Positions 632 through 11,157 of a DNA stretch of 11,157 bases are shown here, piece after piece; position 1 is the first letter of the stretch, and every line of letters starts with the position of its first letter. The DNA comes from a virus (taxonomy: Duplodnaviria > Heunggongvirae > Uroviricota > Caudoviricetes): IMG/VR virus record IMGVR_UViG_3300031248_000001; one strand, 5' to 3'. The position numbers were made by a program, and so were the translations under genes. The notes beneath the pieces were generated by a model. That model saw nothing but the letters and a program-made list of their open reading frames with translations. It ran no database searches and was not told the DNA's origin.

Positions 632-665
632 AGGCTGCCTGTAAGGGGCGGCCTCTTTCGTTTTT
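632..665 (+). terminator. Intrinsic terminator-like hairpin plus U-tract
   Basis: Stem AGGCTGCC (632-639) / GGCGGCCT (647-654), 8 bp with one G-U, followed by CTTTCGTTTTT. Confidence 0.6.
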
Positions 666-684
666 GAGGGAGAGAAGCGATGGC
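664..684 (+). repeat. 21-bp RBS/start cassette, copy 1 (TTGAGGGAGAGAAGCGATGGC)
   Basis: Identical to 1272-1292; contains the SD-like GAGGGAG and ATG 680. Confidence 0.9.
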
Positions 685-1207
685 GACCATTTCGATTGGT
701 CATGCGATCTACCTCGGCAACCCGGACGGCCAGACGCTGTACGAGGGGGGTGCCGAGCGGACGGGCATCAAGGAGACGGCCTCTCAGACCTACGGGCAGG
801 GCGCGCCGCTCTACAAGGACTCCAGCGGCACGATTGCGATTGCTACGGCGTCCTCGAACGTCGTGGCGCTCTGCACGGGGTTCGCGATGGAGGCGGCGTC
901 CGGGACGACCGGGCAGTCCGTGTACTACCGGCGGCTGCGGCCGGGCGACAAGTACGTGGTGAACGTGGCGGGGACTTCCACCACGACCACGAACGCCAAT
1001 ATGGTGGGCGACCTGACGAACTTCGACATCAGCTCGGGTAAGTTGGTCGCCAACCCGGACGGCACGGACGACACCAAGCTCGCGGCGATCATCGTGGCGC
1101 TCTACGTGCCGACGACGTTCGGCTACAACGAGGCGGCGGACGCGGCCGGGGACACGAACGGTCGGATCGTCGTGCAGTTCATCGACAACAAGGCCATCCA
1201 GCGGTAA
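680..1207 (+). CDS. Putative capsid decoration/cement protein
   Basis: 175 aa, strong SD, directly upstream of the MCP and sharing its leader; Gly/Ala/Thr-rich and beta-like (21 Thr and 11 Ser by count). Function inferred from position. Confidence 0.6.
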   Translation: MATISIGHAIYLGNPDGQTLYEGGAERTGIKETASQTYGQGAPLYKDSSGTIAIATASSNVVALCTGFAMEAASGTTGQSVYYRRLRPGDKYVVNVAGTSTTTTNANMVGDLTNFDISSGKLVANPDGTDDTKLAAIIVALYVPTTFGYNEAADAAGDTNGRIVVQFIDNKAIQR

Positions 1208-1271: not shown

Positions 1272-1292
1272 TTGAGGGAGAGAAGCGATGGC
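1272..1292 (+). repeat. 21-bp RBS/start cassette, copy 2
   Basis: Identical to 664-684; contains ATG 1288. Confidence 0.9.
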
Positions 1293-2226
1293 TCTGCTAG
1301 GTGGAACCGTCACGCGTTCGCATTTTGCAAACGCGCTGGAAGCGAACCTGCGGAAAGGGTACGTAGAGGAGTACAAGATCCTCTCCGCGCGTGCCCTCTA
1401 TCCGCGCATCTACAACTTGCTGGACTCGGACGGCAAGATCGAGCGCTTCACGGTCAACGCGGGGTTGGGGACCTTCCCGACCAAGCCGGAGAACGATGCG
1501 TTCGACTACGACGCGCCGCAAGAGGCGTGGACCCAGAACCTGACCAACGTCGAGTACGCGCTCGGGGTCAGTGTGTCCATGACCGCGATGGAAGACGACA
1601 TGCACGGGCTCATCAAGAAGAGCCTGCGGCAGAACGGCGGCGCCTTGATGAAGGTGGCGATGTACACGAAGGAGCGGGACGCGATGACGCTGTTCAACTC
1701 CACGCTCACTTCGGGCACCGCCTACACGGCCGGCGGAACGAACTACTCCGTGCTCGCGACCAACCACTTCCGGGTGGATGGCGGGACGTGGAGCAACAAG
1801 TTCGCCAGTTCGACCGACCTTTCCATCGAGGCGCTCGAAGCCGCTATCCAGCACTGGATGGCGAACCAGAAGAACCAGCGCGGCCAGATCAGCATGGTGA
1901 TGCCGACGACCCTGATGGTCGCCCCCGGCAACGTCATGCTGGCCCGCCGGATCGTCAACTCGGTGAAGCTGCCGCAGTCCGCGGACAACGATCCGAACCC
2001 GGCCGGCTCGATGATCGATGAGATCATCGAGCACCCGCTGCTCACTAACGATGGGCGCTGGCTGCTGTTCGCTCCGAAAGACGAGCGCCGCCTGCCCTAC
2101 ATCGAGCGCGTGCGCCCGAACGTCTTCCGCCAGCCGGACGGGGACAACGGGGCCAGTCGCTGGGTTGGCCGCTACCGGTGCGTGTCGGGCTTGGTCGACC
2201 CAATCGGTACCTTCGGGACGGACTGA
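1288..2226 (+). CDS. Major capsid protein, Mu gpT-like family (HK97 fold)
   Basis: 312 aa. Motifs YDAPQEAWT...EYALGVSVSMTAMEDD, TDLSIEALEAAI, PTTLMVAP, SADNDPN and C-terminal RY..SGLVDPIGTFGT match the pattern I recognise from Mu-gpT-like MCPs (YDNAQEAWT...ALGFSITEEAIEDN; DLNETSLEAA; ADNDIN; SDPLGMFGS). Strong SD and flanking terminators. Confidence 0.85.
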   Translation: MALLGGTVTRSHFANALEANLRKGYVEEYKILSARALYPRIYNLLDSDGKIERFTVNAGLGTFPTKPENDAFDYDAPQEAWTQNLTNVEYALGVSVSMTAMEDDMHGLIKKSLRQNGGALMKVAMYTKERDAMTLFNSTLTSGTAYTAGGTNYSVLATNHFRVDGGTWSNKFASSTDLSIEALEAAIQHWMANQKNQRGQISMVMPTTLMVAPGNVMLARRIVNSVKLPQSADNDPNPAGSMIDEIIEHPLLTNDGRWLLFAPKDERRLPYIERVRPNVFRQPDGDNGASRWVGRYRCVSGLVDPIGTFGTD

Positions 2227-2252: not shown

Positions 2253-2290
2253 GGGGCCTGCCCTTCACCGGGGCGGGCCTCTTTTCATTT
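2253..2290 (+). terminator. Intrinsic terminator after the MCP gene
   Basis: GGGGCCTGCCC (2253-2263) / GGGCGGGCCTC (2271-2281), 11-bp stem with two G-U, then TTTTCATTT. Confidence 0.75.
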
Positions 2291-2304: not shown

Positions 2305-3105
2305 ATGTCCGTGCTCTTAGGGCACCAGGGCGCTGGGGGAAGCGATTTCCGGTTCCCGCTCCGGACGATTTCGCGGGGCAACGCCGGGGTGGTGGACATC
2401 CACGCTCCGACGCTGTTTCAGGCGTATCCCAACTGGTTCTGGTATTACGAAGACTTCCTCTGGGACGCCTTCGATGCCGATGAGATGGCGCTGTCGATCT
2501 ACGACCACTCGCCTTCCGGTTCCCCGACCAAGGGGCTAGTAGCGAACGGCACGGGCGGCCAGTTCCAGCTCAAGGCCAGCAGCACTTCCGAAGCGCAGAT
2601 GCTGGCGATCTGCCAAGATGACAACCTGTTCATCCAGGGGAACCTGCCGTTCATGTTCGCGGCCCGCGTCAAGGTCGTGCACACGATGGCCGCGAACCAG
2701 AACGTGCTCATCGGCGTGACCTCCGCGTTCAAGAATGATCCGGTGACCCCGGACTACTGGACGCGGCACGCGATGTTCAAGTTGGACACGGATACGGACC
2801 TGCTGCTGGAGTCGGATGACAACACGACCGATACCGACGACAAGGACACCGGCATCGACATCACGGCCGGTGAGTGGTACTGGTACGTGATCGAGAACGG
2901 CAGCAACGGCCGGCTCTACTACGGGCTGATCGACAACGAAGGCTACATGAAGACCTGGAACCTGGAGGACAAGTTCGGCGTAACGGCCCCCAGCTACGGG
3001 GCGAACAACATGCAGCCGTTCGTGGGGGTCCTCAAGGCCTCCGGCACGACCACGCCCGAGATTCTCTGCGATGCCGTCCTGTACGGCGGACAGCGCGTCC
3101 AGTAA
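2305..3105 (+). CDS. Putative virion structural protein (beta-rich, possible head decoration/lectin-like fold)
   Basis: 266 aa, SD AGGAGG at 2293-2298, immediately after the MCP; acidic, aromatic and beta-strand-like (WYYEDF, GGQFQL, FAARVKV, WYWYVIE). No motif I can assign firmly. Confidence 0.45.
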   Translation: MSVLLGHQGAGGSDFRFPLRTISRGNAGVVDIHAPTLFQAYPNWFWYYEDFLWDAFDADEMALSIYDHSPSGSPTKGLVANGTGGQFQLKASSTSEAQMLAICQDDNLFIQGNLPFMFAARVKVVHTMAANQNVLIGVTSAFKNDPVTPDYWTRHAMFKLDTDTDLLLESDDNTTDTDDKDTGIDITAGEWYWYVIENGSNGRLYYGLIDNEGYMKTWNLEDKFGVTAPSYGANNMQPFVGVLKASGTTTPEILCDAVLYGGQRVQ

Positions 3106-4209
3106 GTGAAGGCGTTCGTCTTCCGTTCGGAAGGAACTCCGGCCCCGCCCGAGGCGAGGGAGTGGGACTACAACCCCGCTCCCTCGCCGCTCCCCCTCGT
3201 CTCCGTCATCGTCGCCTGCCTCGGGCAACTCGACTACACGAAAGGGCTCGTGGCTTCCCTGGAAGCGAACGCGGGCTGCGAGTACGAGTTGATCCTGGTA
3301 GACAACGGGTGCCCGGAGGGGACGGCGGCCTGGGCGAAGCAGCAGGGTATCCGGTGCGTGCGGTTCCGTGAGAACCAGGGGGTGCCGAAAGCGTATAACG
3401 CAGGGGTGAAGGAAGCGCGCGGCGAGATCATCGCGCTCTGGAACAACGATCAAGTCTGTCACCCGCACGGGCTCAAGCGGCTCGCGGAAGCGTGCTACAC
3501 GCGCGGGATCGCGGCGCAGGGCGCGGGTATGTGGGATGACGGGGGCGGATACGTCGGCGGCTCGGACGAAGCGTGGTGGTCCGATAACGCGGGCGGGAAC
3601 GCGTTGGTTTTCCAACGCCAGGTCTGGGAAGACGTGGGGGAGTGGGATGAAGCCTTCTTCCCCTCCTACTCGGATGATACTGATTGGTGCTTGCGGGCGC
3701 GGTTGAAGGGTTGGGACTTCCGGTGCCTGCGGGGCTGCGTGACGCACTTCGGGCAGAAGACGAGCGGCTCGATGGATCTGCGCGAGGTGGTGCTGCGGCA
3801 TCAGCAGATCATCCGGGACCGCTACCTGCATCTGGGGCTCGGGCAGCGCATCCTCGTGATCCGCTACGCGGCGGCGGGCGATATCCTGATGACGACCCCC
3901 GTGCTGCGGGCATTAAAGAAGCAGGTGCCGCTGGCTCGCCTGCACGTGTATTGTCATCCGGGGGCGGGCTCGGTGCTGGCTGGGAACCCGCACGTCGACC
4001 ATCGGACCGACCAGCTTGTGGACCCGCGGCGCTACACGCGGCTCATCGATCTGACGAACGCTTACGAGGCGGGACAGCGGCGCGGGGAGTGGGAGCATCC
4101 CGTCCGGGCCTACTGCGAGCGGGCGGGGGTCGAGTTCGATGGGAAGCCGTATGACCTGTACATCCCGGAGCGGCTGCGGGAGTGGGCAAAGGAGATGTTT
4201 CCACAATGA
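3106..4209 (+). CDS. Glycosyltransferase fusion: GT2 domain plus N-terminal half of a GT9 (heptosyltransferase-like) domain
   Basis: GT2 motifs: LVSVIV, LILVDNG, ENQGVPKAYNAG, IALWNND, GEWDEAFFPSYSDDTDWCLRA. From ~3847, RILVIRYAAAGDILMTTPVLRALKKQVPLARLHV...LAGNPHVD is the typical WaaC/WaaF-like GT9 N-terminus. GTG start abuts the upstream TAA. Confidence 0.85.
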   Translation: MKAFVFRSEGTPAPPEAREWDYNPAPSPLPLVSVIVACLGQLDYTKGLVASLEANAGCEYELILVDNGCPEGTAAWAKQQGIRCVRFRENQGVPKAYNAGVKEARGEIIALWNNDQVCHPHGLKRLAEACYTRGIAAQGAGMWDDGGGYVGGSDEAWWSDNAGGNALVFQRQVWEDVGEWDEAFFPSYSDDTDWCLRARLKGWDFRCLRGCVTHFGQKTSGSMDLREVVLRHQQIIRDRYLHLGLGQRILVIRYAAAGDILMTTPVLRALKKQVPLARLHVYCHPGAGSVLAGNPHVDHRTDQLVDPRRYTRLIDLTNAYEAGQRRGEWEHPVRAYCERAGVEFDGKPYDLYIPERLREWAKEMFPQ

Positions 4210-4436
4210 TGAATTTCATCGCTCCGGTCTTACTCTTTTGGGTGCCCCTTACGGTCTTGATCTTGATGGGCCTTTCTTACGAGGAGAGGACCGGGCAGAG
4301 CGACAGGTGTCTGCCGTTCTGGGGCGAGTTCATCTACAGGACAAGCCTCGTCGGCATGTTCTTGATGGTCTTGAACCTGATCGGGTGGGGGATGGCGCAG
4401 GGGATTGCCAAGACGGTGGGCATTTCGGGGCAATGA
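4206..4436 (+). CDS. Small membrane protein (76 aa, two hydrophobic segments)
   Basis: MMNFIAPVLLFWVPLTVLILMGL...SLVGMFLMVLNLIGWGMAQGIA. ATGA overlaps at both ends, AAGGAG at 4189-4194, and about 64 of 76 codons end in G/C although local GC is only ~55%. Confidence 0.7.
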   Translation: MMNFIAPVLLFWVPLTVLILMGLSYEERTGQSDRCLPFWGEFIYRTSLVGMFLMVLNLIGWGMAQGIAKTVGISGQ

Positions 4437-4933
4437 TTTACATCGCCGCTGGCATCCGCTCCGGCACCCGCATCAAGCAGAACTACCGCGCCTCCGGCTG
4501 GCTGGAGATCGCCAACGCCTTACCGGCCGGGATGCGCCTCGTGGCCCTGGACAGCGCCCCGCGTCCGCCGCTCGGCGCACACGGCCCCTCTGCCCTCGAT
4601 GACGCGTTCTACGACCATCCCAACGTCTTGGATCTGACCGGAGAGACGGAGTCGATCCACCACGCCGCCGCGTTGATCGAACGGTGCTCTGCCTTCGTGG
4701 GCGTGGACTCGGCGCTCCTGCACGTGGCGCACGCGCTGGGTAAGCCGGTACAGGTGTTGTGCGCGGCGGCCCCGATGGAGGCGCGGCTGCCGATCGTGGG
4801 GCAGGGTGACGGCTTCGAGGGCGGGGCGGACTGCTTCCCGTGCCAGTACCGGACGCCGTGTCCGGAGCGGAGCCACTGTCTGGATTGGGTGAAGGGGGAG
4901 TGGGTGGCGAAGAAGATTGGGGAGATGGTATGA
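4433..4933 (+). CDS. C-terminal half of a GT9 glycosyltransferase
   Basis: Starts MIYIAAG at an ATGA overlap (track ORF 4139..4933 is over-extended). Contains VLDLTGET..HHAAALIERCSAFVGVDSALLHVAHALGKPV and a C-terminal CFPC...C...C cluster, both typical of GT9 C-domains. Confidence 0.8.
   Translation: MIYIAAGIRSGTRIKQNYRASGWLEIANALPAGMRLVALDSAPRPPLGAHGPSALDDAFYDHPNVLDLTGETESIHHAAALIERCSAFVGVDSALLHVAHALGKPVQVLCAAAPMEARLPIVGQGDGFEGGADCFPCQYRTPCPERSHCLDWVKGEWVAKKIGEMV
4905..4929 (+). repeat. 25-bp imperfect direct repeat, copy 1 (3' end of the GT9 C-half gene)
   Basis: TGGCGAAGAAGATTGGGGAGATGGT versus 5071-5095 TGGCGCGGAAGATTAGGGAGATGGT, 22/25 identical. Confidence 0.8.
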
Positions 4934-5034
4934 TGCTGTCACCTGATCGACGGTGCGCGTCGGGGGTGCTGCGACACCTGCGGCTGCTAAGTGAGGCTCT
5001 CGCAGGAGCCAAACCGGCTCGGTTCAGGGATTAG
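4930..5034 (+). CDS. Possible 34-aa micro-ORF (MMLSPDRRCASGVLRHLRLLSEALAGAKPARFRD)
   Basis: ATGA overlap with the GT9C stop and GGAG at 4921-4924, but no clear GC3 bias (~21/34) and it overlaps structured sequence. Confidence 0.25.
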   Translation: MMLSPDRRCASGVLRHLRLLSEALAGAKPARFRD

Positions 5035-5066
5035 GGGTCTCATCGAAAGGTGAGGCCCTTTCTAAT
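5030..5066 (+). other. Stable RNA hairpin with GAAA tetraloop (possible terminator or structured element)
   Basis: ATTAG-GGGTCTCATC (GAAA) GGTGAGGCCC-TTT-CTAAT: 10-bp inner stem plus 5-bp outer stem separated by a 3-nt bulge. The U-tract after the inner stem is short (TTTCT). Confidence 0.55.
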
Positions 5067-5070
5067 GCAA

Positions 5071-5095
5071 TGGCGCGGAAGATTAGGGAGATGGT
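5071..5095 (+). repeat. 25-bp imperfect direct repeat, copy 2
   Basis: 22/25 identical to 4905-4929; reads (M)ARKIREMV versus (V)AKKIGEMV. Confidence 0.8.
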
Positions 5096-5098
5096 GTC

Positions 5099-5125
5099 GG
5101 CGGGGCCAGCATAGCCAGCCCCGCC
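5099..5125 (+). other. GC-rich hairpin (weak terminator candidate)
   Basis: GGCGGGGC (5099-5106) / GCCCCGCC (5118-5125), perfect 8 bp with an 11-nt loop; only TT follows. Confidence 0.4.
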
Positions 5126-5295
5126 TTCGATGCCTGGACAGCGCAAGGGGGTGCCCATTCCCATCCTTCCCGGATGCCTCCAAGCTGCTCGGGACTCAGA
5201 GCTTTCATGCGCCACGCCCGCCGTTTAGCTGACCTGTCGATGCCTCGAACAAATCAGCCGAAGCAGGCGCTGAGACCAGGGTTTTAGTCTATCAC

Positions 5296-6111
5296 ATGAC
5301 CCGCCCCCTCCTCTCCGTCCACATGCCCCTGCACCGGGCCGTGGAGTTCGACTACCCCTACATCGAAGCCCTGCAGTCCGTCCTCCCTATCGCGGACGAG
5401 GTTCACGTAGTCGTCCACCCGAGCGGGGACGGCACCGAGGAGCAGCTCGGCAAGCTGGCCTGGGAGCACCGCCCGAAGATTCACCTGCACGAGTGGGAGT
5501 GGTGGCAGCCGGCACGGAAAGAGAAGTGCCTCGCGGACGCGACCAACTACGGGATCGAACAGTGCGCCGGGGTCTGGCACCTGGCGCTCCAGGCCGACGA
5601 AGTGGTGCACGAGAGCCAGTTGGAAGCGCTGCTGGCGCTGTGCCGTCAGGACGAATACCCGTGGGTGGAATTCGAGCGCCTGAACCTTTACGGGACGTTC
5701 GACGGCTACAACACGAACCGGGGACGCTGGCCGTGTTCGGTGGTCCGGCTGGCGAAGCGCGACCTCTACCCGCACATTTGCAGCTACGACGACGCGACGC
5801 ACCTGGGGATACCGAAGGGGTACGATGAGCGGGAGACGCCCCGGCTGGATGCGCGCGGGCAAGTAGCGCTCTGGCATTACAGCTATACGCGGACGGGGCG
5901 CGCGTTTGTGGAGCGGCAGGCGTCGATGGCTAGATTATACGGCCTCAACCCCGATCCGGTGGTGGAAGCGCATCGGGCGGAGGAACGAGTGGATTGGTGG
6001 AAGACCGTGCCTCGGGCGGAGTTCGCACCGCTGCCGAGCGAGCATCCCCAGGTGATGCGGGAATGGGTGGAAGCAAGACGGGAACGGGTCCACGCGGGGG
6101 CTTGGGAGTGA
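5296..6111 (+). CDS. Glycosyltransferase, GT-A fold (GT2-like)
   Basis: LLSVHMP, YPYIEALQSVLPIADEVHVVV..SGDGTEE, LADATNYGIEQCAGVWHLALQADEVVHE: a GT2-like N-terminus with a QADE DxD-type motif. Confidence 0.8.
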   Translation: MTRPLLSVHMPLHRAVEFDYPYIEALQSVLPIADEVHVVVHPSGDGTEEQLGKLAWEHRPKIHLHEWEWWQPARKEKCLADATNYGIEQCAGVWHLALQADEVVHESQLEALLALCRQDEYPWVEFERLNLYGTFDGYNTNRGRWPCSVVRLAKRDLYPHICSYDDATHLGIPKGYDERETPRLDARGQVALWHYSYTRTGRAFVERQASMARLYGLNPDPVVEAHRAEERVDWWKTVPRAEFAPLPSEHPQVMREWVEARRERVHAGAWE

Positions 6112-6734
6112 GTCTCGTTGCCCACGCCCAGCAGTCCGTGGCCGACGTGCTGATCGGGCGCGTGGAAGTGCCGCGCGAGATCTTCGAGATCGGCGGCTTC
6201 TGCGGCGCCTCCTTCCGCGCCCTCGTAAACCGCCTGTGCCGCCCGCCAGCAACCGCGTATCTCGAAGTAGGCGTTTTGCACGGAGCGACCTTCTGCTCGG
6301 CCCTGGCGGGCAACACGGGGCTGCGGGCGTGCGGGGTGGACAACTTCTCCAACCCGTCCTTCAACGGCAGCGAGGAGATCGTCCGGGCGAACCTGACGAA
6401 GTGGCAGGGCGCGAACGAGGTGCGGTTCCTGAACGCGGACGCCTGGGGGCTGGACCCTCTGACGTTGGGCGGCCCGTTCGATGTCTACCTGTACGACGCG
6501 GATCACAGCGAGGCAGGCACGGCGCGCGGCATCACCCATTTCCTGCCGGCGCTCGCGCGGCCGTTCGTCTTGCTGATGGACGATTACGAGCGGCCCGAGG
6601 TGGCGGCGGGGACGGAGCGCGGGATTGCCGAGGCGGGTTTGCGCGTGCTCTGGGACGCCTCCTTCTACCCGCCGGTGCCGCCAGACGGGGGCGGCACGTG
6701 GTTGAACGGGCTGTATCTCGCCGTGCTGGAATGA
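6108..6734 (+). CDS. Class I SAM-dependent methyltransferase (Methyltransf_24-like; candidate sugar O-methyltransferase)
   Basis: GTGA overlap start at 6108 (208 aa; track start 5994 is over-extended). Motifs YLEVGVLHGAT, GVDNF, PFDVYLYDADH and LLMDDY. Confidence 0.8.
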   Translation: MSLVAHAQQSVADVLIGRVEVPREIFEIGGFCGASFRALVNRLCRPPATAYLEVGVLHGATFCSALAGNTGLRACGVDNFSNPSFNGSEEIVRANLTKWQGANEVRFLNADAWGLDPLTLGGPFDVYLYDADHSEAGTARGITHFLPALARPFVLLMDDYERPEVAAGTERGIAEAGLRVLWDASFYPPVPPDGGGTWLNGLYLAVLE

Positions 6735-7363
6735 GCGCCGTCCTGATCCAGGTCGCCACCGGCGATTGGACGCCGGTTCTGGAAGTCACCGAACTACACC
6801 ACCAAGCCTACTGCGCGCGACACGGGATGACCTGGCGGGCGGTCCGCGAGCCGCTGCAGACGGAGCGGCACCCGATCTGGTGCAAGATCTGGGCAATCCG
6901 GCAGGCGCTGGCGGAAGGCTTCGATTGGGTGTTTTGTTTGGACGGGGACGCCCTGGTGGTGGACGTGGAGACCGACCTGCGGAGCGCGCTCACCTACGGG
7001 GAGTTGGGGCTCGCGTGGCACGTCCTGCCCTGGATGCCCTTGAACTTGAACACGGGCGTCAGCTACATCCGGAACACGCCCCGGATGCGGGAGTTCTACG
7101 AGCGGGTGGCGACCTTCCCGCACGAGGCGGATTGGGACGCCTGCACGCACAAGCTGGGGAGCCGGGGCGGCGAGCAGCATTCGGTGGTGCGGGTCTTGCA
7201 GGAGACGGGGTTCGAGGTGCTCCAGATCCTGCATCAGCGGTGGAACTACGTGGGGGGCGAGATGCCGGAATGCCGGCCGGTGGTGCAGGCGTGGCACGGG
7301 GTCGGCGGGATTACGGATCGGGTAGCGTTGATGGCGGCGGAGTTGGATAAACTACAGGTATGA
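6731..7363 (+). CDS. Glycosyltransferase, GT34 / GMA12-MNN10-like
   Basis: ATGA overlap start at 6731 (210 aa). YCARHG, WCKIWAIRQAL, DWVFCLDGDAL (DxD), LNTGVSYIRNT, GEQ and RWN follow the GMA12/MNN10 motif order. Confidence 0.7.
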   Translation: MSAVLIQVATGDWTPVLEVTELHHQAYCARHGMTWRAVREPLQTERHPIWCKIWAIRQALAEGFDWVFCLDGDALVVDVETDLRSALTYGELGLAWHVLPWMPLNLNTGVSYIRNTPRMREFYERVATFPHEADWDACTHKLGSRGGEQHSVVRVLQETGFEVLQILHQRWNYVGGEMPECRPVVQAWHGVGGITDRVALMAAELDKLQV

Positions 7364-7575
7364 GCAAGCCAGGGTTCTTGAAGACTGCTGAGGAGAAGGT
7401 TGCTGAACGCCAGGGCGACCCGGTGCTTCGCCAGATGCCCCCCGTCGGTTGTGGCAAGCGCTATTTCCGGGTGATTGACGGTGAAGTTTGCGAGACGCTG
7501 AGTCCCGCCGTAGATTCCTCGGCCTTCCGTAGAGAGACGGTCCCGTTTGCTATCTGGGGCACTGCCGAGACGTAA
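7360..7575 (+). CDS. Hypothetical protein (71 aa)
   Basis: ATGA overlap with the GT34 stop, ~49/71 G/C-ending codons, and it fills the gap to 7588. Confidence 0.5.
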   Translation: MSKPGFLKTAEEKVAERQGDPVLRQMPPVGCGKRYFRVIDGEVCETLSPAVDSSAFRRETVPFAIWGTAET

Positions 7576-7587
7576 CCTCTACCCACA

Positions 7588-8817
7588 ATGACCATCACGG
7601 CTTCCCGGCCGGCACCCGTAACGGTGCCGGCCTTCTCTACGCCCGGCCGCTGCACCCTCTGCTGCGGGTCGCACATCCGCTGCGTGCTCGATCTAGGGGA
7701 ACAGCCGCTGGCGAACGGCCTGCTCTCCTCCGCCGCCGAAGTGGCCCCGCGCTTCCCGCTCCGGCTTGGCTACTGCGAGGGCTGCGGTCACGTCGAACTC
7801 ATGGACCGCGTGCCGCCGGAAGCGATGTTCGGCACCTATGTCTACCGGACGGGGGCGAGCGCGCCGATGGTCGCGCACTTCACGGAGCTGGCCGCGCAGG
7901 TTTCGCATCGCCTCTCCGTGGTGGACCCCGGCTGGGTCTGCGAGATCGGCTCGAACGACGGGACGTTCTTGCGGGCGCTGCGCGGGCAGGGATTCGCGGA
8001 AGAGGAAGTGATCGGGGTTGATCCGTGTTCCGTGGCGCGCGGCGAGCAGTTCACGGTGCATCGCTATTTCGGGACGCTGGTGGCCGAGCAACTGCGCGAT
8101 AGCTACGGCCCCGCCGCCTGCGTGGTGGCCTGCAACGTGCTCGCCCACTGTCCGCAGCCGACCGCGCTGCTTAAGGCCGCCCACGGGCTCCTGGCCCGCA
8201 ACGGCTTGCTGGTGCTGGAGGTGCCGTATCTGCGGGATATGGTGGACAGCCTGACCTGGGATCAGGTCTACCACGAGCACCACTCCGTCTTCTCTGCCCA
8301 GATCCTGGCGCGGTTGTTGACGGTGACGGGCTTCGTGGCCGAGCAGGTGGAGCGGCTGTCCGTCCACGGCGGTTCCCTGCGGGTCTGGGCGCGCGCGGTC
8401 TCCAACATCCAGCAGCACAGTCCCTGCCCGGAATGGCACGCCCTGCAGGAGCAGGAGTGGCGGAGCCCGGTGGACTGGGAGCGATTTGGCGCGGACGTGG
8501 AACGGCACGCGACCCGGCTGCGGGAGCTGTGCGGCGGCGCGGAACGGCTCATCGGTTACGGGGCACCGGCCAAGGCGACGGTCTTGTTGAATTACGCGGG
8601 AATCAAGCCGACCGCCCTGTTCGACACGACGCCGGAGAAGGCGGGCCGCTACGTGCCCGGCGTGAACGCGCCGATCCTGCCGATGGACGAGATCCGCGAC
8701 CACCGCCCCGACCGCGCCCTCCTACTCGCCTGGAACTATCAGGACGCGATCCTGGCACGCGAGACGTGGCTGCACGGGAAGTGGGTTATCCCTTTCCCTG
8801 TCCCGAGGACTGCCTGA
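7588..8817 (+). CDS. NDP-hexose C3-methyltransferase (TylC3/TcaB9/EvaC-like)
   Basis: Zn site CTLC (7651-7662) and CEGC (7774-7785), LDLGEQPLAN, FPLRL, EIGSNDGTFL, NVLAH, EVPYL, DQVYHEH (YHEH 8269-8280), HGGSLRV, GYGAPAKATVLLN, PEKAGRYVPG and LLLAWNY: the full motif series of the family. Confidence 0.92.
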   Translation: MTITASRPAPVTVPAFSTPGRCTLCCGSHIRCVLDLGEQPLANGLLSSAAEVAPRFPLRLGYCEGCGHVELMDRVPPEAMFGTYVYRTGASAPMVAHFTELAAQVSHRLSVVDPGWVCEIGSNDGTFLRALRGQGFAEEEVIGVDPCSVARGEQFTVHRYFGTLVAEQLRDSYGPAACVVACNVLAHCPQPTALLKAAHGLLARNGLLVLEVPYLRDMVDSLTWDQVYHEHHSVFSAQILARLLTVTGFVAEQVERLSVHGGSLRVWARAVSNIQQHSPCPEWHALQEQEWRSPVDWERFGADVERHATRLRELCGGAERLIGYGAPAKATVLLNYAGIKPTALFDTTPEKAGRYVPGVNAPILPMDEIRDHRPDRALLLAWNYQDAILARETWLHGKWVIPFPVPRTA

Positions 8818-9026
8818 TGGCTTCCCGCTACATCCGTATCAACCACCGCAGCAAGTCTCTGGCACGCGGGCGCATCCCCGGCTGCTGGCCGCCGCTCCCC
8901 GCCGTAGGGCCGTACGTCACGAGCGCCGATAGCGGGCTACTGATCGCGAAGAAGCACGCGGTTAAGGGGCGGGGCGGGTACGTGCACCGGGCGTTTCGCT
9001 TCGGGGAGAGGGATCGGACACCGTGA
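8817..9026 (+). CDS. Small basic hypothetical protein (69 aa, MASRYIRINHRSK...RDRTP)
   Basis: TGATG overlap upstream and GTGA overlap downstream; ~58/69 G/C-ending codons; R/K-rich. It is the distal part of track ORF 8433..9026. Confidence 0.6.
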   Translation: MASRYIRINHRSKSLARGRIPGCWPPLPAVGPYVTSADSGLLIAKKHAVKGRGGYVHRAFRFGERDRTP

Positions 9027-9652
9027 CTCAGGCAGAAGGCCGAACCCTGTTCCGTGACTTGACGAACGAGCAGGACACGAACATCGTCACGGCGGCACAG
9101 GTCGATCAGCAGATCAGCCTTGGGCAAGAGGCGCTCAACGACCTCATCGGCTACTTCATAAAGGACGATACGAGTACGATCGCGCTGGTGAATGGGACGC
9201 AGGAATACACGCTCCCCGCCGACTGTCTCGAAGTCCTGCACGCGACGTGGAACAACACGTTCTTGAAGGAAGAGACGCTAGACGAGGCGCGGCGGAACTA
9301 CACCAACTGGCTTTCAGCATCCGCCTCTGCCACGCTCGAAAGCTACGTGCTTTACGGGCGGAAACTGCTCTTAATCCCGAAGCCGAACGCTACAGCGGTC
9401 TCTTCGGACGGCTTCGTGGACCTCCGCTACGTGGCGACCCCCACGGCCTACGCGACCACGGCGTTCGACGGGCTTGCCTCGCAGCACCACGCGATTCCCA
9501 TCTACTACGCGGCGTCTCTGTGGTTGGACGCCCACGGGTTCGACGGCGCGATGGTGCGGTCGCAGCGTCTGATGGAGAAGTTCCTGCAGCGGGCCGAGGG
9601 GGCGAGGCGGCATTACCAGAGCCGCTTCACGAGCGGGAAAGGGCGGGCGTAA
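9023..9652 (+). CDS. Putative head-tail adaptor / connector protein, paralog 1
   Basis: Helical N-terminus, ALVNGTQEYTLPADCLEV, LLLIPKP, RYVATP and a helical C-terminus: an architecture I associate with phage adaptor proteins; lies downstream of the head genes. Confidence 0.6.
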   Translation: MTQAEGRTLFRDLTNEQDTNIVTAAQVDQQISLGQEALNDLIGYFIKDDTSTIALVNGTQEYTLPADCLEVLHATWNNTFLKEETLDEARRNYTNWLSASASATLESYVLYGRKLLLIPKPNATAVSSDGFVDLRYVATPTAYATTAFDGLASQHHAIPIYYAASLWLDAHGFDGAMVRSQRLMEKFLQRAEGARRHYQSRFTSGKGRA

Positions 9653-10333
9653 GTGGCGCAGTTCACCCTTGACGGGCTCCGGTCGGCGCTGCGGAAGCGG
9701 ATCGGCAACCCAGACACGCGCGAGGCCCCGGACCGCGAGTTGGATGACTTCCTGCAACGCGGCTGGGAATGGGCCGCCGCCGAGCTCGAACTCACCGTCA
9801 CCACCGACACCACGACCCTCGCCCTCGTCGCCGGCACCCAGGAATACACGCTCCCGACCGACCTCCTGGTGGTGTTGTGGGCGGAGTGGAACGAGATCCG
9901 GCTGAAAGGGCGCACGACGTTCGAGTGGGATCGGGACGGAACCGTGTGGCGGAACGCGGAGAACGCGGACACGCTCGTGGAGTTCGCGCTGGAAGGTCAG
10001 AAGATGATCTTCAGCGCCCCGCCTTCCGCAACAGCAGTGACCGCAGACAGTGCCGTGACGGTGCGCTACTACGCGAATGCGGCGGCCCTGGCGACCTCCA
10101 GCACGGCGGCGACGGCGCTCGGGGAAGGTGACCAGATGCTGCCCGTCTACGCGGCGGCGGTGGAGTGGCTGGGCGTGCATCCGGAGCGGGACCAGGGCGC
10201 GCTGCTATTGCAGGCGAACGCGGCGACGCTGGGGCGGCTGCTCGTGCAGGCGAAGCGGCGGGTGATGAAGCGGATAGCGGATTACGAGCCGGGGTTTGCG
10301 GTGAGTAATCGCAGGGCGGGGATCGCCAGGTAA
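9653..10333 (+). CDS. Putative head-tail adaptor / connector protein, paralog 2
   Basis: TLDGLRSALRKRIGNPD, ALVAGTQEYTLPTDLLVVLWAEWN and PPSATAVTADSAVTVRYYA are clearly similar to 9023-9652. GTG abuts the upstream TAA. Confidence 0.6.
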   Translation: MAQFTLDGLRSALRKRIGNPDTREAPDRELDDFLQRGWEWAAAELELTVTTDTTTLALVAGTQEYTLPTDLLVVLWAEWNEIRLKGRTTFEWDRDGTVWRNAENADTLVEFALEGQKMIFSAPPSATAVTADSAVTVRYYANAAALATSSTAATALGEGDQMLPVYAAAVEWLGVHPERDQGALLLQANAATLGRLLVQAKRRVMKRIADYEPGFAVSNRRAGIAR

Positions 10334-10360
10334 GCGGGCGGGGGAGTAGCGAGATTTCGA

Positions 10361-10395
10361 GGGGAGTGCCCTTTTCGGGGCGCTCCTTTTTCTTT
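10361..10395 (+). terminator. Intrinsic terminator
   Basis: GGAGTGCCCT (10363-10372) / GGGGCGCTCC (10377-10386) stem followed by TTTTTCTTT. Confidence 0.8.
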
Positions 10396-10413
10396 GTACC
10401 GGGGGATGGGTAG

Positions 10414-11157
10414 ATGCCGATTGCAGCAGGATACGGGATAGGTCCGGTTACGCTGGATGCCGACGAGGAGACCGCTGTTCTGGGGGTGGGCGGCCGATCC
10501 TCGGTAGGCGGCTCCCTGAACACGAACGCGGCGAACGCGACCCTCACCTACATCATCGAGCTATCCCTCGACAATGAGACTTCCTGGGAGCCCGCGACGT
10601 GGTTCCAACAGGATGCGACCCCGGCGCCGCTGTCGGGCAACCAGGCGGTAGCCGCGGCGACCCTGACGGCGGTCGGCTTCTATATCAACCTGCCTGGCGG
10701 GGTCACGCACGTACGGGTGCGGCTGGACGCCTACACGTCCGGCGAATTGCGCGTGACGATGCACGCGGTAGACACGCCGCCGGGCCACGTGCTGGCGACC
10801 CTGGTGGACAGCAGCGGGAATGTGGGGAGTGGGCTATCCCTTGGCACGGTGACCGGTCCTGTCGCCGATGATGCTCCGGCCGTCATCGGCACCACGACCG
10901 TCTTCCCGATGGGGGCACTGGCGGACGAGACCACGCCCGACAGCGTGGACGAGGGGGATGTGGGCATCCCCCGGATGACGTTGACGCGCATCCTGAAGAC
11001 GAGTGCTCAGGATCATGTCCGGGCGATCAGCGGATCCCACACTACGAACTCCAGCCTTTCCTCGGCGGTCACGCTCACGCCGCCGGCCAACGCCACCGCG
11101 CTCATTATTCAGGCGACGGTCAGTGCGAAGAACATCCGGCTCACCCTGGACGGTACG
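10414..11157 (+). CDS. 3'-truncated putative virion structural protein (fibre/decoration-like)
   Basis: Missing from the ORF track. Open from ATG 10414 to the window end (248 codons: MPIAAGYGIGPVTLDADEETAVLGVGG...YIIELSLDNETSWEP...THVRVRLDAYTSG...NIRLTLDGT). Strong G/C third-position bias; Thr/Ser/Ala/Gly-rich and beta-like. Confidence 0.65.
   Translation, partial: MPIAAGYGIGPVTLDADEETAVLGVGGRSSVGGSLNTNAANATLTYIIELSLDNETSWEPATWFQQDATPAPLSGNQAVAAATLTAVGFYINLPGGVTHVRVRLDAYTSGELRVTMHAVDTPPGHVLATLVDSSGNVGSGLSLGTVTGPVADDAPAVIGTTTVFPMGALADETTPDSVDEGDVGIPRMTLTRILKTSAQDHVRAISGSHTTNSSLSSAVTLTPPANATALIIQATVSAKNIRLTLDGT

What the first reader, a model, noticed from the sequence alone, without database searches (positions are those of the whole stretch)
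3106..8817. Glycan-building cassette inside the capsid-to-adaptor operon: candidate virion glycosylation system
Seen: four glycosyltransferase modules (GT2, split GT9, GT2, GT34-like), a class I methyltransferase and an NDP-sugar C-methyltransferase sit co-oriented between the MCP/decoration genes and the head-tail adaptors. Most are joined by stop/start overlaps (3105/3106, 4206, 4433, 6108, 6731, 7360, 8817, 9023), implying late, coupled expression with virion proteins. Established: virion glycosylation by phage-encoded GTs is reported for some mycobacteriophages, and chloroviruses such as PBCV-1 put methylated sugars on their capsid; known serotype-conversion cassettes (GtrABC) look different and are usually expressed in lysogeny. 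Inference: this phage assembles a multi-residue, O- and C-methylated glycan on capsid or decoration proteins, possibly for shielding or adhesion. I do not recall this enzyme combination being described in a tailed phage.
Basis: partly seen in the sequence, partly recalled or inferred. Interest (0 to 1): 0.85.

Follow-up and report, generated by a model that had tools for sequence, protein, structure and literature searches.

The report
Phage head-module glycan-building enzyme cassette
An uncultured temperate phage, probably of Armatimonadota bacteria, carries a conserved set of sugar-transferring and methylating enzymes between its capsid and head-tail adaptor genes; it probably sugar-coats a particle protein, but what it modifies is not shown.

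Summary
Window 3106-8817 encodes four glycosyltransferase modules: GT2 fused to a GT9 N-domain, a separate GT9 C-domain, a GT2-like GT-A, and a GT34/A064R-like GT-A. It also encodes a Methyltransf_24 methyltransferase and a full-length TcaB9/KijD1/TylC3-type NDP-hexose 3-C-methyltransferase. All are co-oriented, soluble and mostly start/stop-coupled.

It is not a mis-assembly. The same cassette sits at the same place in at least six other uncultured phages.

Sampling capsid relatives showed more. The cassette is one allele of a variable cargo slot between a concanavalin-A-like head-module protein (p266) and a small backbone gene (p69) followed by SU10-type adaptors.
- Some relatives carry a GT9-like transferase with sulfotransferase, dioxygenase and methyltransferases.
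- One carries GT2, methyltransferases and radical-SAM enzymes.
- Two carry no enzymes, and one Armatimonadota prophage has an empty slot.

Best reading (about 0.5): late, cytoplasmic assembly of a short, methylated glycan with a C-methyl branch on a virion surface protein, analogous to Corndog/Che8 mycobacteriophage virion glycosylation but without detectable homology to it. The acceptor is unproven. Host-envelope and DNA glycosylation remain rivals.

Earlier notes of this scan describe similar head-module cassettes on other DNA. I rate this a new variant of a known kind.

The parts
680..1207 (+). Cement-like head decoration protein (175 aa). Context and a candidate acceptor.
   Evidence: Weak Phage_cement_2 hit. 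Conserved in all relatives. It shares the leader TGAGGGAGAGAAGCG with the MCP gene.
1288..2226 (+). Major capsid protein (312 aa). Context and a candidate acceptor.
   Evidence: Mu-like_gpT / Phage_capsid_4. 68 homologue clusters at 32-67% identity.
2253..2281 (+). Terminator-like hairpin after the MCP gene, probably an attenuator ahead of the cassette.
   Evidence: 12-pair stem with 9 G-C pairs, followed by a T run.
2305..3105 (+). p266, a concanavalin-A/legume-lectin-like beta-sandwich protein. It is the partner gene that always precedes the enzyme cargo.
   Evidence: AF2 model pLDDT 89.8. Top PDB match is 2A5Z (SO2946), followed by legume lectins. SO2946-like_C in 24 of 67 and Laminin_G_3 in 7 of 67 family members. 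389 representative clusters.
3106..4209 (+). GT2 glycosyltransferase (residues about 30-235) fused to a GT9 N-terminal Rossmann domain (residues about 240-367).
   Evidence: Pfam. Aligns to intact 527-560 aa GT2-GT9 fusions. 3TOV GT9 N-domain hit.
4206..4436 (+). 76-aa two-TM microgene inserted at the GT9 interdomain linker. Specific to this phage.
   Evidence: GC3 0.83 in its own frame. KD19 maximum 2.41. ATGA overlaps at both ends. No homologue in the relatives examined.
4433..4933 (+). GT9 C-terminal (nucleotide-sugar-binding) domain with a conserved CxxC...C...HC motif.
   Evidence: PF01075 at 1.4e-8. WaaF 1PSW match. 58-67% identical to the same region of intact fusions. The Cys/His columns are invariant.
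4934..5295 (.). 362-nt noncoding gap with two local GC-rich hairpins. Same spot as insertions in relatives.
   Evidence: No frame-specific GC3 signal. No Rfam family above its threshold. Overall fold z-score -0.87. No similarity to relatives. L012 has an AAA ATPase inserted at this spot.
5296..6111 (+). GT-A (GT2-like) glycosyltransferase, 271 aa. A core cassette gene.
   Evidence: PF00535 at E 0.001, below cut-off. Family profile hits the GmaR GT domain at 2.8e-4. Atlas GT2 neighbours at TM 0.82. 50-67% identical in all six relatives.
6108..6734 (+). Methyltransf_24 class I SAM methyltransferase, a probable sugar O-methyltransferase. An alternative ATG start lies at 6063.
   Evidence: PF13578 at 2.4e-8. 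phrog_1458 at 4e-17. Homologues in five of six relatives.
6731..7363 (+). GT34 / A064R-D1-like GT-A with an LDGD motif.
   Evidence: PF05637 at 25.2 bits against a cut-off of 23. PBCV-1 A64R (2P6W) at E 7e-7. Homologues in L012 and L013 only.
7360..7575 (+). 71-aa ORF, a doubtful gene.
   Evidence: GC3 0.68 against 0.83-0.92 for its neighbours. No family match and no homologue.
7588..8817 (+). NDP-4-keto-hexose 3-C-methyltransferase with three domains: Zn ribbon, SAM-binding domain and C-terminal domain.
   Evidence: Methyltransf_13/23/14. Full-length match to KijD1, TcaB9 and TylC3 at E 6e-60 to 4e-53. Four Zn cysteines and the YxEH motif are aligned. Present in all six relatives.
8817..9026 (+). 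p69, a small basic backbone protein that marks the downstream edge of the slot.
   Evidence: Homologues lie directly before the adaptors in the enzyme-less relative L016 and in the empty-slot prophage L026.
9023..10333 (+). Two paralogous SU10-type head-tail adaptor genes (9023-9652 and 9653-10333).
   Evidence: PF24175 at 2e-14 and 9.5e-13.
10359..10390 (+). Terminator-like hairpin that closes the unit.
   Evidence: 14-pair stem followed by a T run.

Best explanation
Window 3106-8817 is a functional, late-expressed, cytoplasmic glycan-assembly cassette. It most likely decorates a virion surface protein of the head. The ConA-like protein p266, the cement-like protein and the MCP are the candidate acceptors.

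Inferred steps:
1. The TcaB9-type enzyme C-methylates a host-made NDP-4-keto-6-deoxyhexose. No dehydratase or ketoreductase is encoded here, so the host must supply those steps.
2. A GT9-type transferase is the common first enzyme of all cargo alleles that could be examined. Here it is fused to GT2 and then split. Its characterised relatives use ADP-heptose.
3. Together with the GT2 module, the GT-A 271 and the A064R-like GT, it would make up to four linkages.
4. The Methyltransf_24 enzyme O-methylates a sugar.

Shown: enzyme identities, solubility, operon position, conservation, and the slot's variability. Inferred: donors, order of steps and the acceptor.
For: - The enzyme families are robustly identified.
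- All enzymes lack TM segments. There is no flippase, polymerase, ligase or initiating phosphoglycosyltransferase.
- The cassette lies inside the head operon, after an attenuator-like hairpin and upstream of the essential adaptor genes, with start/stop coupling. In L013 the genes run almost gap-free from the ConA-like gene to the adaptors.
- It sits at the same position in six other phages whose MCPs have diverged to 31-67% identity, while the enzymes stay at 47-79%.
- The slot carries interchangeable tailoring sets. In every locus with DNA these follow the ConA-like protein and begin with a GT9-type enzyme.
- The prophage with an 80%-identical MCP lacks both the ConA-like gene and the enzymes.
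- Precedent: the Corndog O-methyltransferase plus three GTs lie inside its head module and modify capsid and tail tube.
- The split GT9 is probably still active. Both halves are intact with strong GC3, and L007 carries a second split at the same linker.
Against: - No acceptor is identified. C-termini and Ser/Thr tracts of the MCP, cement protein and ConA-like protein do not track cassette presence.
- There is no detectable homology to the proven Corndog enzymes; the best pair has E 0.006.
- GT9 relatives are mostly LPS-core enzymes.
- A064R likeness also occurs in DNA-glycosylating phage GTs.
- No 4,6-dehydratase or 4-ketoreductase is present to complete a C-methyl sugar pathway.
- The 362-nt gap could hold an independent promoter.
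- The phage is uncultured, so nothing here is experimental.
Confidence: 0.5

Rival explanations
1. Host-envelope remodelling. The soluble GTs act at the inner face of the membrane on LPS core, or on another lipid- or protein-linked host glycan. This would change the receptor, for superinfection exclusion or to stop progeny sticking to debris.
For: - The nearest characterised relatives of the GT9 domain are the LPS heptosyltransferases WaaC, WaaF and WaaQ.
- The lineage is temperate: a relative is integrated in an Armatimonadota genome.
- Variable cargo resembles O-antigen-type diversification.
- This phage has a TM microgene and a gap that could hold a promoter.
Against: - The GT9 scores are far below the equivalog cut-offs.
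- No Gtr-, Wzx-, Wzy- or WaaL-type membrane proteins are present.
- The TM microgene and the gap are absent from relatives.
- The cassette sits in a late operon upstream of essential adaptors, not near an integrase or immunity region.
- It is consistently linked to a head-module lectin-fold protein.
Confidence: 0.17
2. DNA sugar hypermodification. The GTs build a glycan on modified bases of the phage genome during packaging.
For: - Phage DNA GTs can add heptose and di- or trisaccharides. They resemble LPS enzymes and PBCV-1 A64R, and some of their gene clusters lie near structural genes.
- An earlier, unchecked scan note reports a C5-cytosine methyltransferase and a TAGT-family GT elsewhere in this genome.
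Against: - No C5-methyltransferase, TET/JBP-type oxygenase or thymidylate-synthase-like hydroxymethylase lies in the window or in the flanks of relatives.
- The known DNA GT-B enzymes are T4 beta-GT-like, not GT9.
- C-methyl and O-methyl tailoring, and the link to a ConA-like protein, are unexplained by this reading.
I did not check this.
Confidence: 0.1
3. Another acceptor. The glycan is made on a non-virion phage or host protein, or on a small molecule. Alternatively it is a free or lipid-linked ligand that the ConA-like head protein binds.
For: - p266 has a lectin fold.
- The enzymes are never seen without it.
- The GT2 domain weakly resembles the small-molecule GT MftF.
Against: - No carrier or scaffold gene is present in the cassette.
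- This reading is less parsimonious than direct decoration of co-expressed virion proteins.
Confidence: 0.13
4. Decaying cargo. In this phage the cassette is degenerating, as suggested by the split GT9, the noncoding gap and a doubtful ORF, and it no longer functions.
For: - The GT9 is interrupted.
- There is a 362-nt gap where relatives have none.
- p71 has weak coding signal.
Against: - All enzyme ORFs are intact with GC3 of 0.84-0.89.
- Catalytic motifs are kept.
- The split lies exactly at the linker and recurs in L007.
- The identical sequence occurs in several samples.
Confidence: 0.04

Closest known systems
Mycobacteriophage virion glycosylation (Corndog gp35-38, Che8 gp108-110, Myrna; Freeman et al. 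2023, read only through citing papers PMC11600133, PMC12363180 and PMC12619734)
   Same: - Phage-encoded GT-A glycosyltransferases plus a Methyltransf_24/TylF-type methyltransferase.
- Embedded in the head-morphogenesis module. Corndog gp35-38 lie between the portal gp34 and the protease/capsid genes.
- Accessory within the lineage.
   Different: - No significant sequence similarity.
- A different host phylum, probably Armatimonadota, and an SU10-type short-tailed lineage.
- Adds a GT2-GT9 fusion and an NDP-hexose 3-C-methyltransferase.
- Sits after the MCP, next to a lectin-fold protein.
- Glycosylation of the virion is not demonstrated here.
PBCV-1 A064R (domain 1 beta-L-rhamnosyltransferase, domain 2 rhamnosyltransferase, domain 3 2-O-methyltransferase), which builds the capsid N-glycan (PMC7826918)
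   Same: - The 210-aa GT34-like protein matches A64R domain 1 (2P6W) at E 7e-7, with the DxD motif aligned.
- The logic of GTs plus a methyltransferase making methylated 6-deoxy sugars on a capsid is similar.
   Different: - Separate small genes rather than one multidomain protein.
- The match covers about 114 residues.
- The same likeness is reported for DNA-modifying phage GTs, so it says nothing about the acceptor.
- This module is present in only three of the seven cassettes.
TcaB9 / KijD1 / TylC3 NDP-hexose 3-C-methyltransferases of antibiotic deoxysugar pathways
   Same: Full-length three-domain match at E 6e-60 to 4e-53, with the Zn cysteines and the catalytic Y-x-E-H aligned.
   Different: - Encoded by a phage with no accompanying 4,6-dehydratase, 2,3-dehydratase, aminotransferase or ketoreductase.
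- The substrate nucleotide and sugar are unknown.
GT9 heptosyltransferases: LPS WaaC/WaaF/WaaQ and the protein-directed TibC/Aah family
   Same: - PF01075 above the gathering score.
- GT-B two-domain layout.
- Matches to WaaF 1PSW and to 3TOV.
   Different: - Far below every NCBIfam equivalog cut-off. TibC/Aah scores only E 2.7e-5.
- Fused to GT2.
- Carries an extra conserved CxxC...C...HC motif.
- Split into two genes in this phage.
Alg13/Alg14-type split GT-B enzymes (from general knowledge, not tested here)
   Same: A GT-B enzyme encoded as two polypeptides, divided between its Rossmann domains. Here a small membrane protein gene lies between the two halves.
   Different: - A different GT family.
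- The membrane ORF is a separate third gene, found only in this phage.
- Assembly of the halves was not tested.

Membership tests
Phage-encoded virion glycosylation system (Corndog/Che8 type) | Phage-encoded glycosyltransferases, with or without a methyltransferase, located in or next to the virion structural module | tested here: met
   The Corndog layout was verified.
Phage-encoded virion glycosylation system (Corndog/Che8 type) | Glycans detected on capsid or tail subunits | not testable with these tools
   This needs glycoprotein staining or MS of particles. No acceptor tag was found by sequence.
Phage-encoded virion glycosylation system (Corndog/Che8 type) | Sequence homology to the proven enzymes (Corndog gp35-38) | tested here: not met
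   BLASTP and phmmer gave nothing significant. The best pair is the GT34-like protein against gp38, at E 0.006 in a 5-sequence database. Che8 and Myrna were not compared.
CAZy GT9 / Pfam Glyco_transf_9 | Match to PF01075 above the gathering score, with a two-Rossmann-domain GT-B layout | tested here: met
   34.8 bits against a cut-off of 22. The N-domain matches 3TOV and the C-domain matches 1PSW.
LPS heptosyltransferase I/II/III orthologues | Score above the NCBIfam equivalog cut-off | tested here: not met
   59-60 bits against cut-offs of 135-185, tested on the intact relative P0002.
NDP-hexose 3-C-methyltransferase (TcaB9/KijD1/TylC3) | Zn-ribbon, SAM-binding and C-terminal domains, with the Cys4 site and the Y-x-E-H catalytic motif | tested here: met
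   PF08421, PF13489 and PF08484 all above cut-off. The full-length alignment shows the cysteines and 'YHEH' aligned to TcaB9 'YDEH'.
NDP-hexose 3-C-methyltransferase (TcaB9/KijD1/TylC3) | Activity on an NDP-4-keto sugar | not testable with these tools
   An enzyme assay is needed.
GT34 / A064R domain-1-like GT-A | PF05637 above cut-off and a DxD motif | tested here: met
   25.2 bits against 23, a marginal pass. 2P6W at E 7e-7, with LDGD aligned to LDSD.
GtrABC-type seroconversion cassette | GtrA flippase, membrane-anchored GtrB and an integral-membrane GtrC | tested here: not met
   No such Pfam hits. The enzymes have a KD19 maximum below 1.6. The only trace is a weak GtrB-like PHROG hit at E 0.0077.
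Phage DNA sugar-hypermodification gene cluster (Pyle et al.) | GTs adjacent to a C5-methyltransferase plus 5mYOX, or to a ThyS-like hydroxymethylase | tested here: not met
   None in the window or in the 20-kb flanks of relatives. The whole genome could not be searched.

The most novel reading that the evidence does not exclude
The MCP-to-adaptor slot of this Armatimonadota phage lineage is a hypervariable 'virion glycan locus'. A lectin-fold head protein travels with a GT9-type initiating transferase and with swappable tailoring sets: GT-As with C- and O-methyltransferases, or sulfotransferase with dioxygenase and methyltransferases, or radical-SAM enzymes. Related phages would then display chemically different glycans on their particles, as a viral counterpart of bacterial O-antigen loci. 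The ConA-like protein would be the glycan's carrier or its anchor.
Probability: 0.3. Interest if true: 0.8.

Novelty: new variant of a known kind. Interest (0 to 1): 0.6.

Why it matters
Phage-encoded virion glycosylation has been shown only in a few actinobacteriophages. A conserved cassette in the head module of phages of a barely studied phylum would extend it in three ways:
- to new hosts;
- to new sugar chemistry, namely a C-methyl-branched sugar, a GT9-type step and O-methylation;
- to sulfation and oxidation in sister alleles.

It would also suggest that phages diversify particle surface chemistry at a dedicated locus. That bears on phage adsorption to environmental polymers, grazing or immune recognition, and particle stability.

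The cassette also supplies compact, soluble enzymes for glyco-engineering: a GT2-GT9 fusion, a naturally split GT-B enzyme, and a stand-alone 3-C-methyltransferase.

Tried and rejected
**Searches that found nothing**
- Megablast of the window against GenBank phages: no match.
- tblastn of p266 and of GT2-GT9 against GenBank phages: no match.
- IMG/VR scans with the MCP and with the GT2-GT9 profile: no relatives.
- GTDB species genomes with the GT2-GT9 profile: only distant GT9 hits in Armatimonadetes and Verrucomicrobia MAGs.
- Rfam on the window: two hits, both below their gathering scores.
- Sigma-70 promoter scan: none.
- The noncoding gap 4934-5295 is not unusually structured (z -0.87) and is not a remnant of any relative's gene.

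**Leads that led nowhere**
- A closer GT2-GT9 homologue (34-40% identity) in Armatimonadota genome G176 sits beside a GT4-GT2 fusion, a DegT aminotransferase and LAGLIDADG genes. This says nothing about the acceptor.
- Acceptor tags. This lead came from earlier scan notes on Thr or Gly-Ser C-termini. C-termini and Ser/Thr tracts of the MCP, cement protein and ConA-like protein do not differ between loci with and without the cassette.

**Steps that could not be run or gave no verdict**
- Complex prediction of a GT2-GT9 fusion with its ConA-like neighbour: no verdict (score 0.00). This is not evidence either way.
- The whole phage genome could not be searched for TET/JBP or ThyS genes, because no genome or record is held.
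- Freeman et al. 2023 is not in the library. I read it only through papers that cite it.

**Rejected reading**
- A mis-assembled host fragment. The same locus occurs in several independent samples and in related phages.

Full report
**1. What is in the window**

The + strand carries one head-module operon:
- a partial scaffold-like gene (2-589);
- a cement-like decoration gene (680-1207);
- the major capsid protein (1288-2226; Mu-gpT/Phage_capsid_4);
- a strong terminator-like hairpin (2253-2281);
- a 266-aa gene (2305-3105);
- the enzyme block 3106-8817;
- a 69-aa gene (8817-9026);
- two paralogous SU10-type adaptors (9023-10333);
- a second terminator-like hairpin (10359-10390).

The junctions are ATGA, GTGA or TGATG overlaps at 4206, 4433, 6108, 6731, 7360, 8817 and 9023. 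At 3105/3106 the genes are adjacent rather than overlapping. A 362-nt gap (4934-5295) has no coding signal. All enzyme ORFs show the genome's strong GC3 bias (0.84-0.89). The 71-aa ORF does not (0.68) and is doubtful.

**2. The enzymes**

The 409-aa protein is a full-length homologue of the sugar 3-C-methyltransferases KijD1, TcaB9 and TylC3 (E 6e-60 to 4e-53). The four zinc cysteines and the catalytic Y-x-E-H are aligned.

The 367-aa protein is a GT2 domain followed by the N-terminal Rossmann domain of a GT9. The 166-aa protein is the GT9 C-domain. Nine of twelve homologues are single 527-560 aa GT2-GT9 fusions, and the window's break falls exactly at the interdomain linker. A 76-aa two-TM microgene with GC3 of 0.83 fills the break. 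Relative L007 is split at the same linker without any microgene. A split GT9 therefore seems tolerated rather than dead.

The GT9 domain is divergent. It matches WaaF (1PSW) and 3TOV, but it lies far below the LPS heptosyltransferase equivalog cut-offs and only faintly resembles TibC/Aah. It carries a conserved CxxC...C...HC motif.

The 271-aa protein is a GT2-like GT-A. Pfam scores it below cut-off. A family profile hits the flagellin O-GlcNAc transferase GmaR at 2.8e-4. Its Atlas neighbours are mostly viral GT2 clusters, and the structural neighbours include GT2+TPR proteins.

The 210-aa protein matches PBCV-1 A64R domain 1 (2P6W) at E 7e-7 with the DxD motif aligned. A064R domain 1 is a rhamnosyltransferase of the capsid glycan (PMC7826918). 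Phage DNA-glycosylating GT-A enzymes show the same top match (preprint 10.1101/2023.12.21.572611). This likeness therefore does not identify the acceptor.

None of the enzymes has a TM segment.

**3. Not an artefact, and conserved**

The identical locus occurs on contigs from ENA, Logan and JGI samples. GT2-GT9 homologues led to six further phages: L005, L006, L007, L012, L013 and its second copy L014. The order is always MCP, p266 homologue, GT2-GT9, GT-A 271, methyltransferase, C-methyltransferase. SU10 adaptors follow in every locus that reaches that far; the L007 contig ends before them, and in L006 about 5 kb of unknown genes come first.

Against the window, the enzymes are 47-79% identical, the MCP 31-67% and p266 29-69%. 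The core is GT2-GT9, GT-A 271 and the C-methyltransferase. Methyltransf_24 is present in five of six relatives and the A064R-like GT in two of six. L013 is the most compact version, with almost no intergenic space from the p266 homologue to the adaptors. Transcription that reaches the essential adaptor genes must therefore cross the cassette.

**4. The slot is a variable cargo locus**

I sampled MCP relatives without regard to GT content. The region between the p266-type gene and p69 plus adaptors varies:
- L016 (MCP 52% identical) and L017 (40%) have a longer ConA-like protein (395-407 aa) and no enzymes.
- L018 and L019 (50-52%) have a short ConA-like protein followed by a 299-300 aa protein, a Sulfotransfer_3 enzyme and methyltransferases. 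L019 adds a PhyH dioxygenase and an RMNT_CmcI-type methyltransferase.
- A contig carrying P0234 (50%) has a Methyltransf_23 enzyme, GT2, two radical-SAM enzymes (one of them with a SPASM domain) and three Methyltransf_24 genes.

The 299-aa family has 41 clusters, and several lie on contigs of MCP relatives. It is GT9-like. Profile-profile comparison with the GT9 domain gives probability 94.8% and E 4.8e-8. WaaF scores E 8e-5, and three members carry PF01075.

The common denominator of the cargo alleles is therefore a ConA-like protein, then a GT9-type transferase, then variable tailoring enzymes. The P0234 contig could not be checked because no DNA was returned.

p69 is a backbone gene: it precedes the adaptors in L016 and in the prophage below. 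The cassette boundaries are thus exactly 3106-8817.

**5. Host and lifestyle**

A search of 401 Armatimonadota genomes with the MCP found a prophage on a 285-kb contig of genome G051. Its MCP is 53% identical to the window's and 80% to L019's. In that prophage the slot is empty: MCP, then the p69 homologue, then the adaptors, with no ConA-like gene and no enzymes.

NCBI MAG fragments labelled Armatimonadota hold a 63%-identical GT2 and a 53%-identical MCP. The lineage is therefore temperate and probably infects Armatimonadota. The ConA-like gene plus enzymes is an accessory block. Enzymes were never seen without the ConA-like gene upstream.

**6. p266**

Its family is large: 389 representative clusters, some as the C-terminal domain of long fibre-like proteins. 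The AF2 model (pLDDT 89.8) is a concanavalin-A/legume-lectin-like sandwich. Its nearest solved structure is the protein SO2946 (2A5Z), followed by legume lectins. BFVD neighbours include tropism-determinant and tail-repeat proteins.

It is most likely a surface-exposed virion protein, either a glycan carrier or a glycan binder.

**7. Interpretation**

Several features fit cytoplasmic decoration of a co-expressed virion protein better than lipid-linked envelope synthesis or DNA modification:
- The enzymes are soluble, and there is no membrane export machinery.
- They are placed in the late operon upstream of the adaptors.
- They are retained while the capsid proteins diverge.
- They are linked to a lectin-fold head protein.
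- The chemistry is interchangeable, as expected for a surface structure.

The closest known system is the Corndog cassette. I verified its layout: gp35 is TylF/Methyltransf_24, gp37-38 are weak GT-A hits (gp36 gave no Pfam hit), and the block lies between the portal and the protease/capsid genes. Papers in the library state that these enzymes modify capsid and tail tube. There is no sequence homology between the two cassettes. The relation is one of analogy, not membership.

The acceptor remains unknown. The sugar pathway is incomplete without host dehydratase and reductase. GT9's usual business is LPS. DNA glycans can also be complex. I therefore put virion-protein glycosylation at about 0.5, host-envelope remodelling at 0.17, DNA at 0.1, another acceptor at 0.13 and decay at 0.04.

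**8. Novelty**

Literature searches found no phage cassette combining GT9 with a C-methyltransferase. No GenBank phage has p266 or GT2-GT9. Earlier AI notes of this scan describe many head-module GT cassettes on other DNA, including one with a C-methyl sugar. I treat these as leads only.

I rate the finding a new variant of a known kind.

Noticed in passing
L018:11050-14484; L019:11026-16661; contig of P0234 (no DNA returned): Relatives with 50-52% identical MCPs carry other enzyme sets in the same slot. L018 and L019 have a GT9-like 299-aa protein, Sulfotransfer_3 and methyltransferases; L019 adds a PhyH dioxygenase and an RMNT_CmcI methyltransferase. The P0234 contig has GT2, methyltransferases and radical-SAM enzymes (one with a SPASM domain).
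   Followed up: partly
L026 (G051:C12:188400-208399), MCP at 9987-10928: A prophage in a 285-kb contig of an Armatimonadota genome. Its MCP is 80% identical to L019's, and its slot is empty (MCP, then p69, then adaptors). This gives a host phylum and shows that the ConA-like gene plus enzymes is dispensable.
   Followed up: partly
L012:3948-5180: A BCS1-like AAA ATPase gene is inserted between GT2-GT9 and the GT-A gene. This is the same spot as the window's 362-nt noncoding gap and L006's 74-aa ORF, so it may be an insertion hot spot inside the cassette.
   Followed up: no
window 664-679 and 1272-1287: The cement-like gene and the MCP gene are preceded by the same leader, TGAGGGAGAGAAGCG, directly before the ATG. 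This is probably a shared strong ribosome-binding context for the two most abundant head proteins.
   Followed up: no
window 4433-4933, residues about 134-149; P0002 C493-C507: A CxxC-x5-C-x4/5-HC motif at the end of the GT9 C-domain is invariant in the eight intact fusions of alignment A2. It may be a metal finger and is not a feature of WaaC or WaaF.
   Followed up: no
window 5030-5070 and 5095-5125: Two GC-rich hairpins with weak U tracts lie inside the noncoding gap. They may act as an internal attenuator or terminator; no Rfam family fits.
   Followed up: partly
L018:7050-7418; L018:1016-1946; L019:683-1608: Relatives encode an Acb2/Tad1-hairpin protein (of the anti-CBASS/Thoeris sponge family) near the scaffold genes. 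They also carry a STAS-domain protein plus a sigma-70 region-4 protein pair, next to the terminase gene in L018.
   Followed up: no
L017:10940-11884: A LAGLIDADG-type endonuclease ORF lies between the MCP gene and the ConA-like gene of an enzyme-less relative.
   Followed up: no
L028 (G176:C25), about 10554-13281 minus strand: An Armatimonadota contig carries a GT4-GT2 fusion followed by a GT9-GT2 protein (34-40% identical to the phage GT2-GT9), a DegT sugar aminotransferase and two LAGLIDADG genes. GC3 is lower across the island. Its origin, phage or host, is unclear.
   Followed up: partly
L007:12931-14331: The gene called as a 466-aa C-methyltransferase matches p69 at its C-terminus (residues 425-462). 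This is either a real fusion or a frameshift or calling artefact.
   Followed up: no
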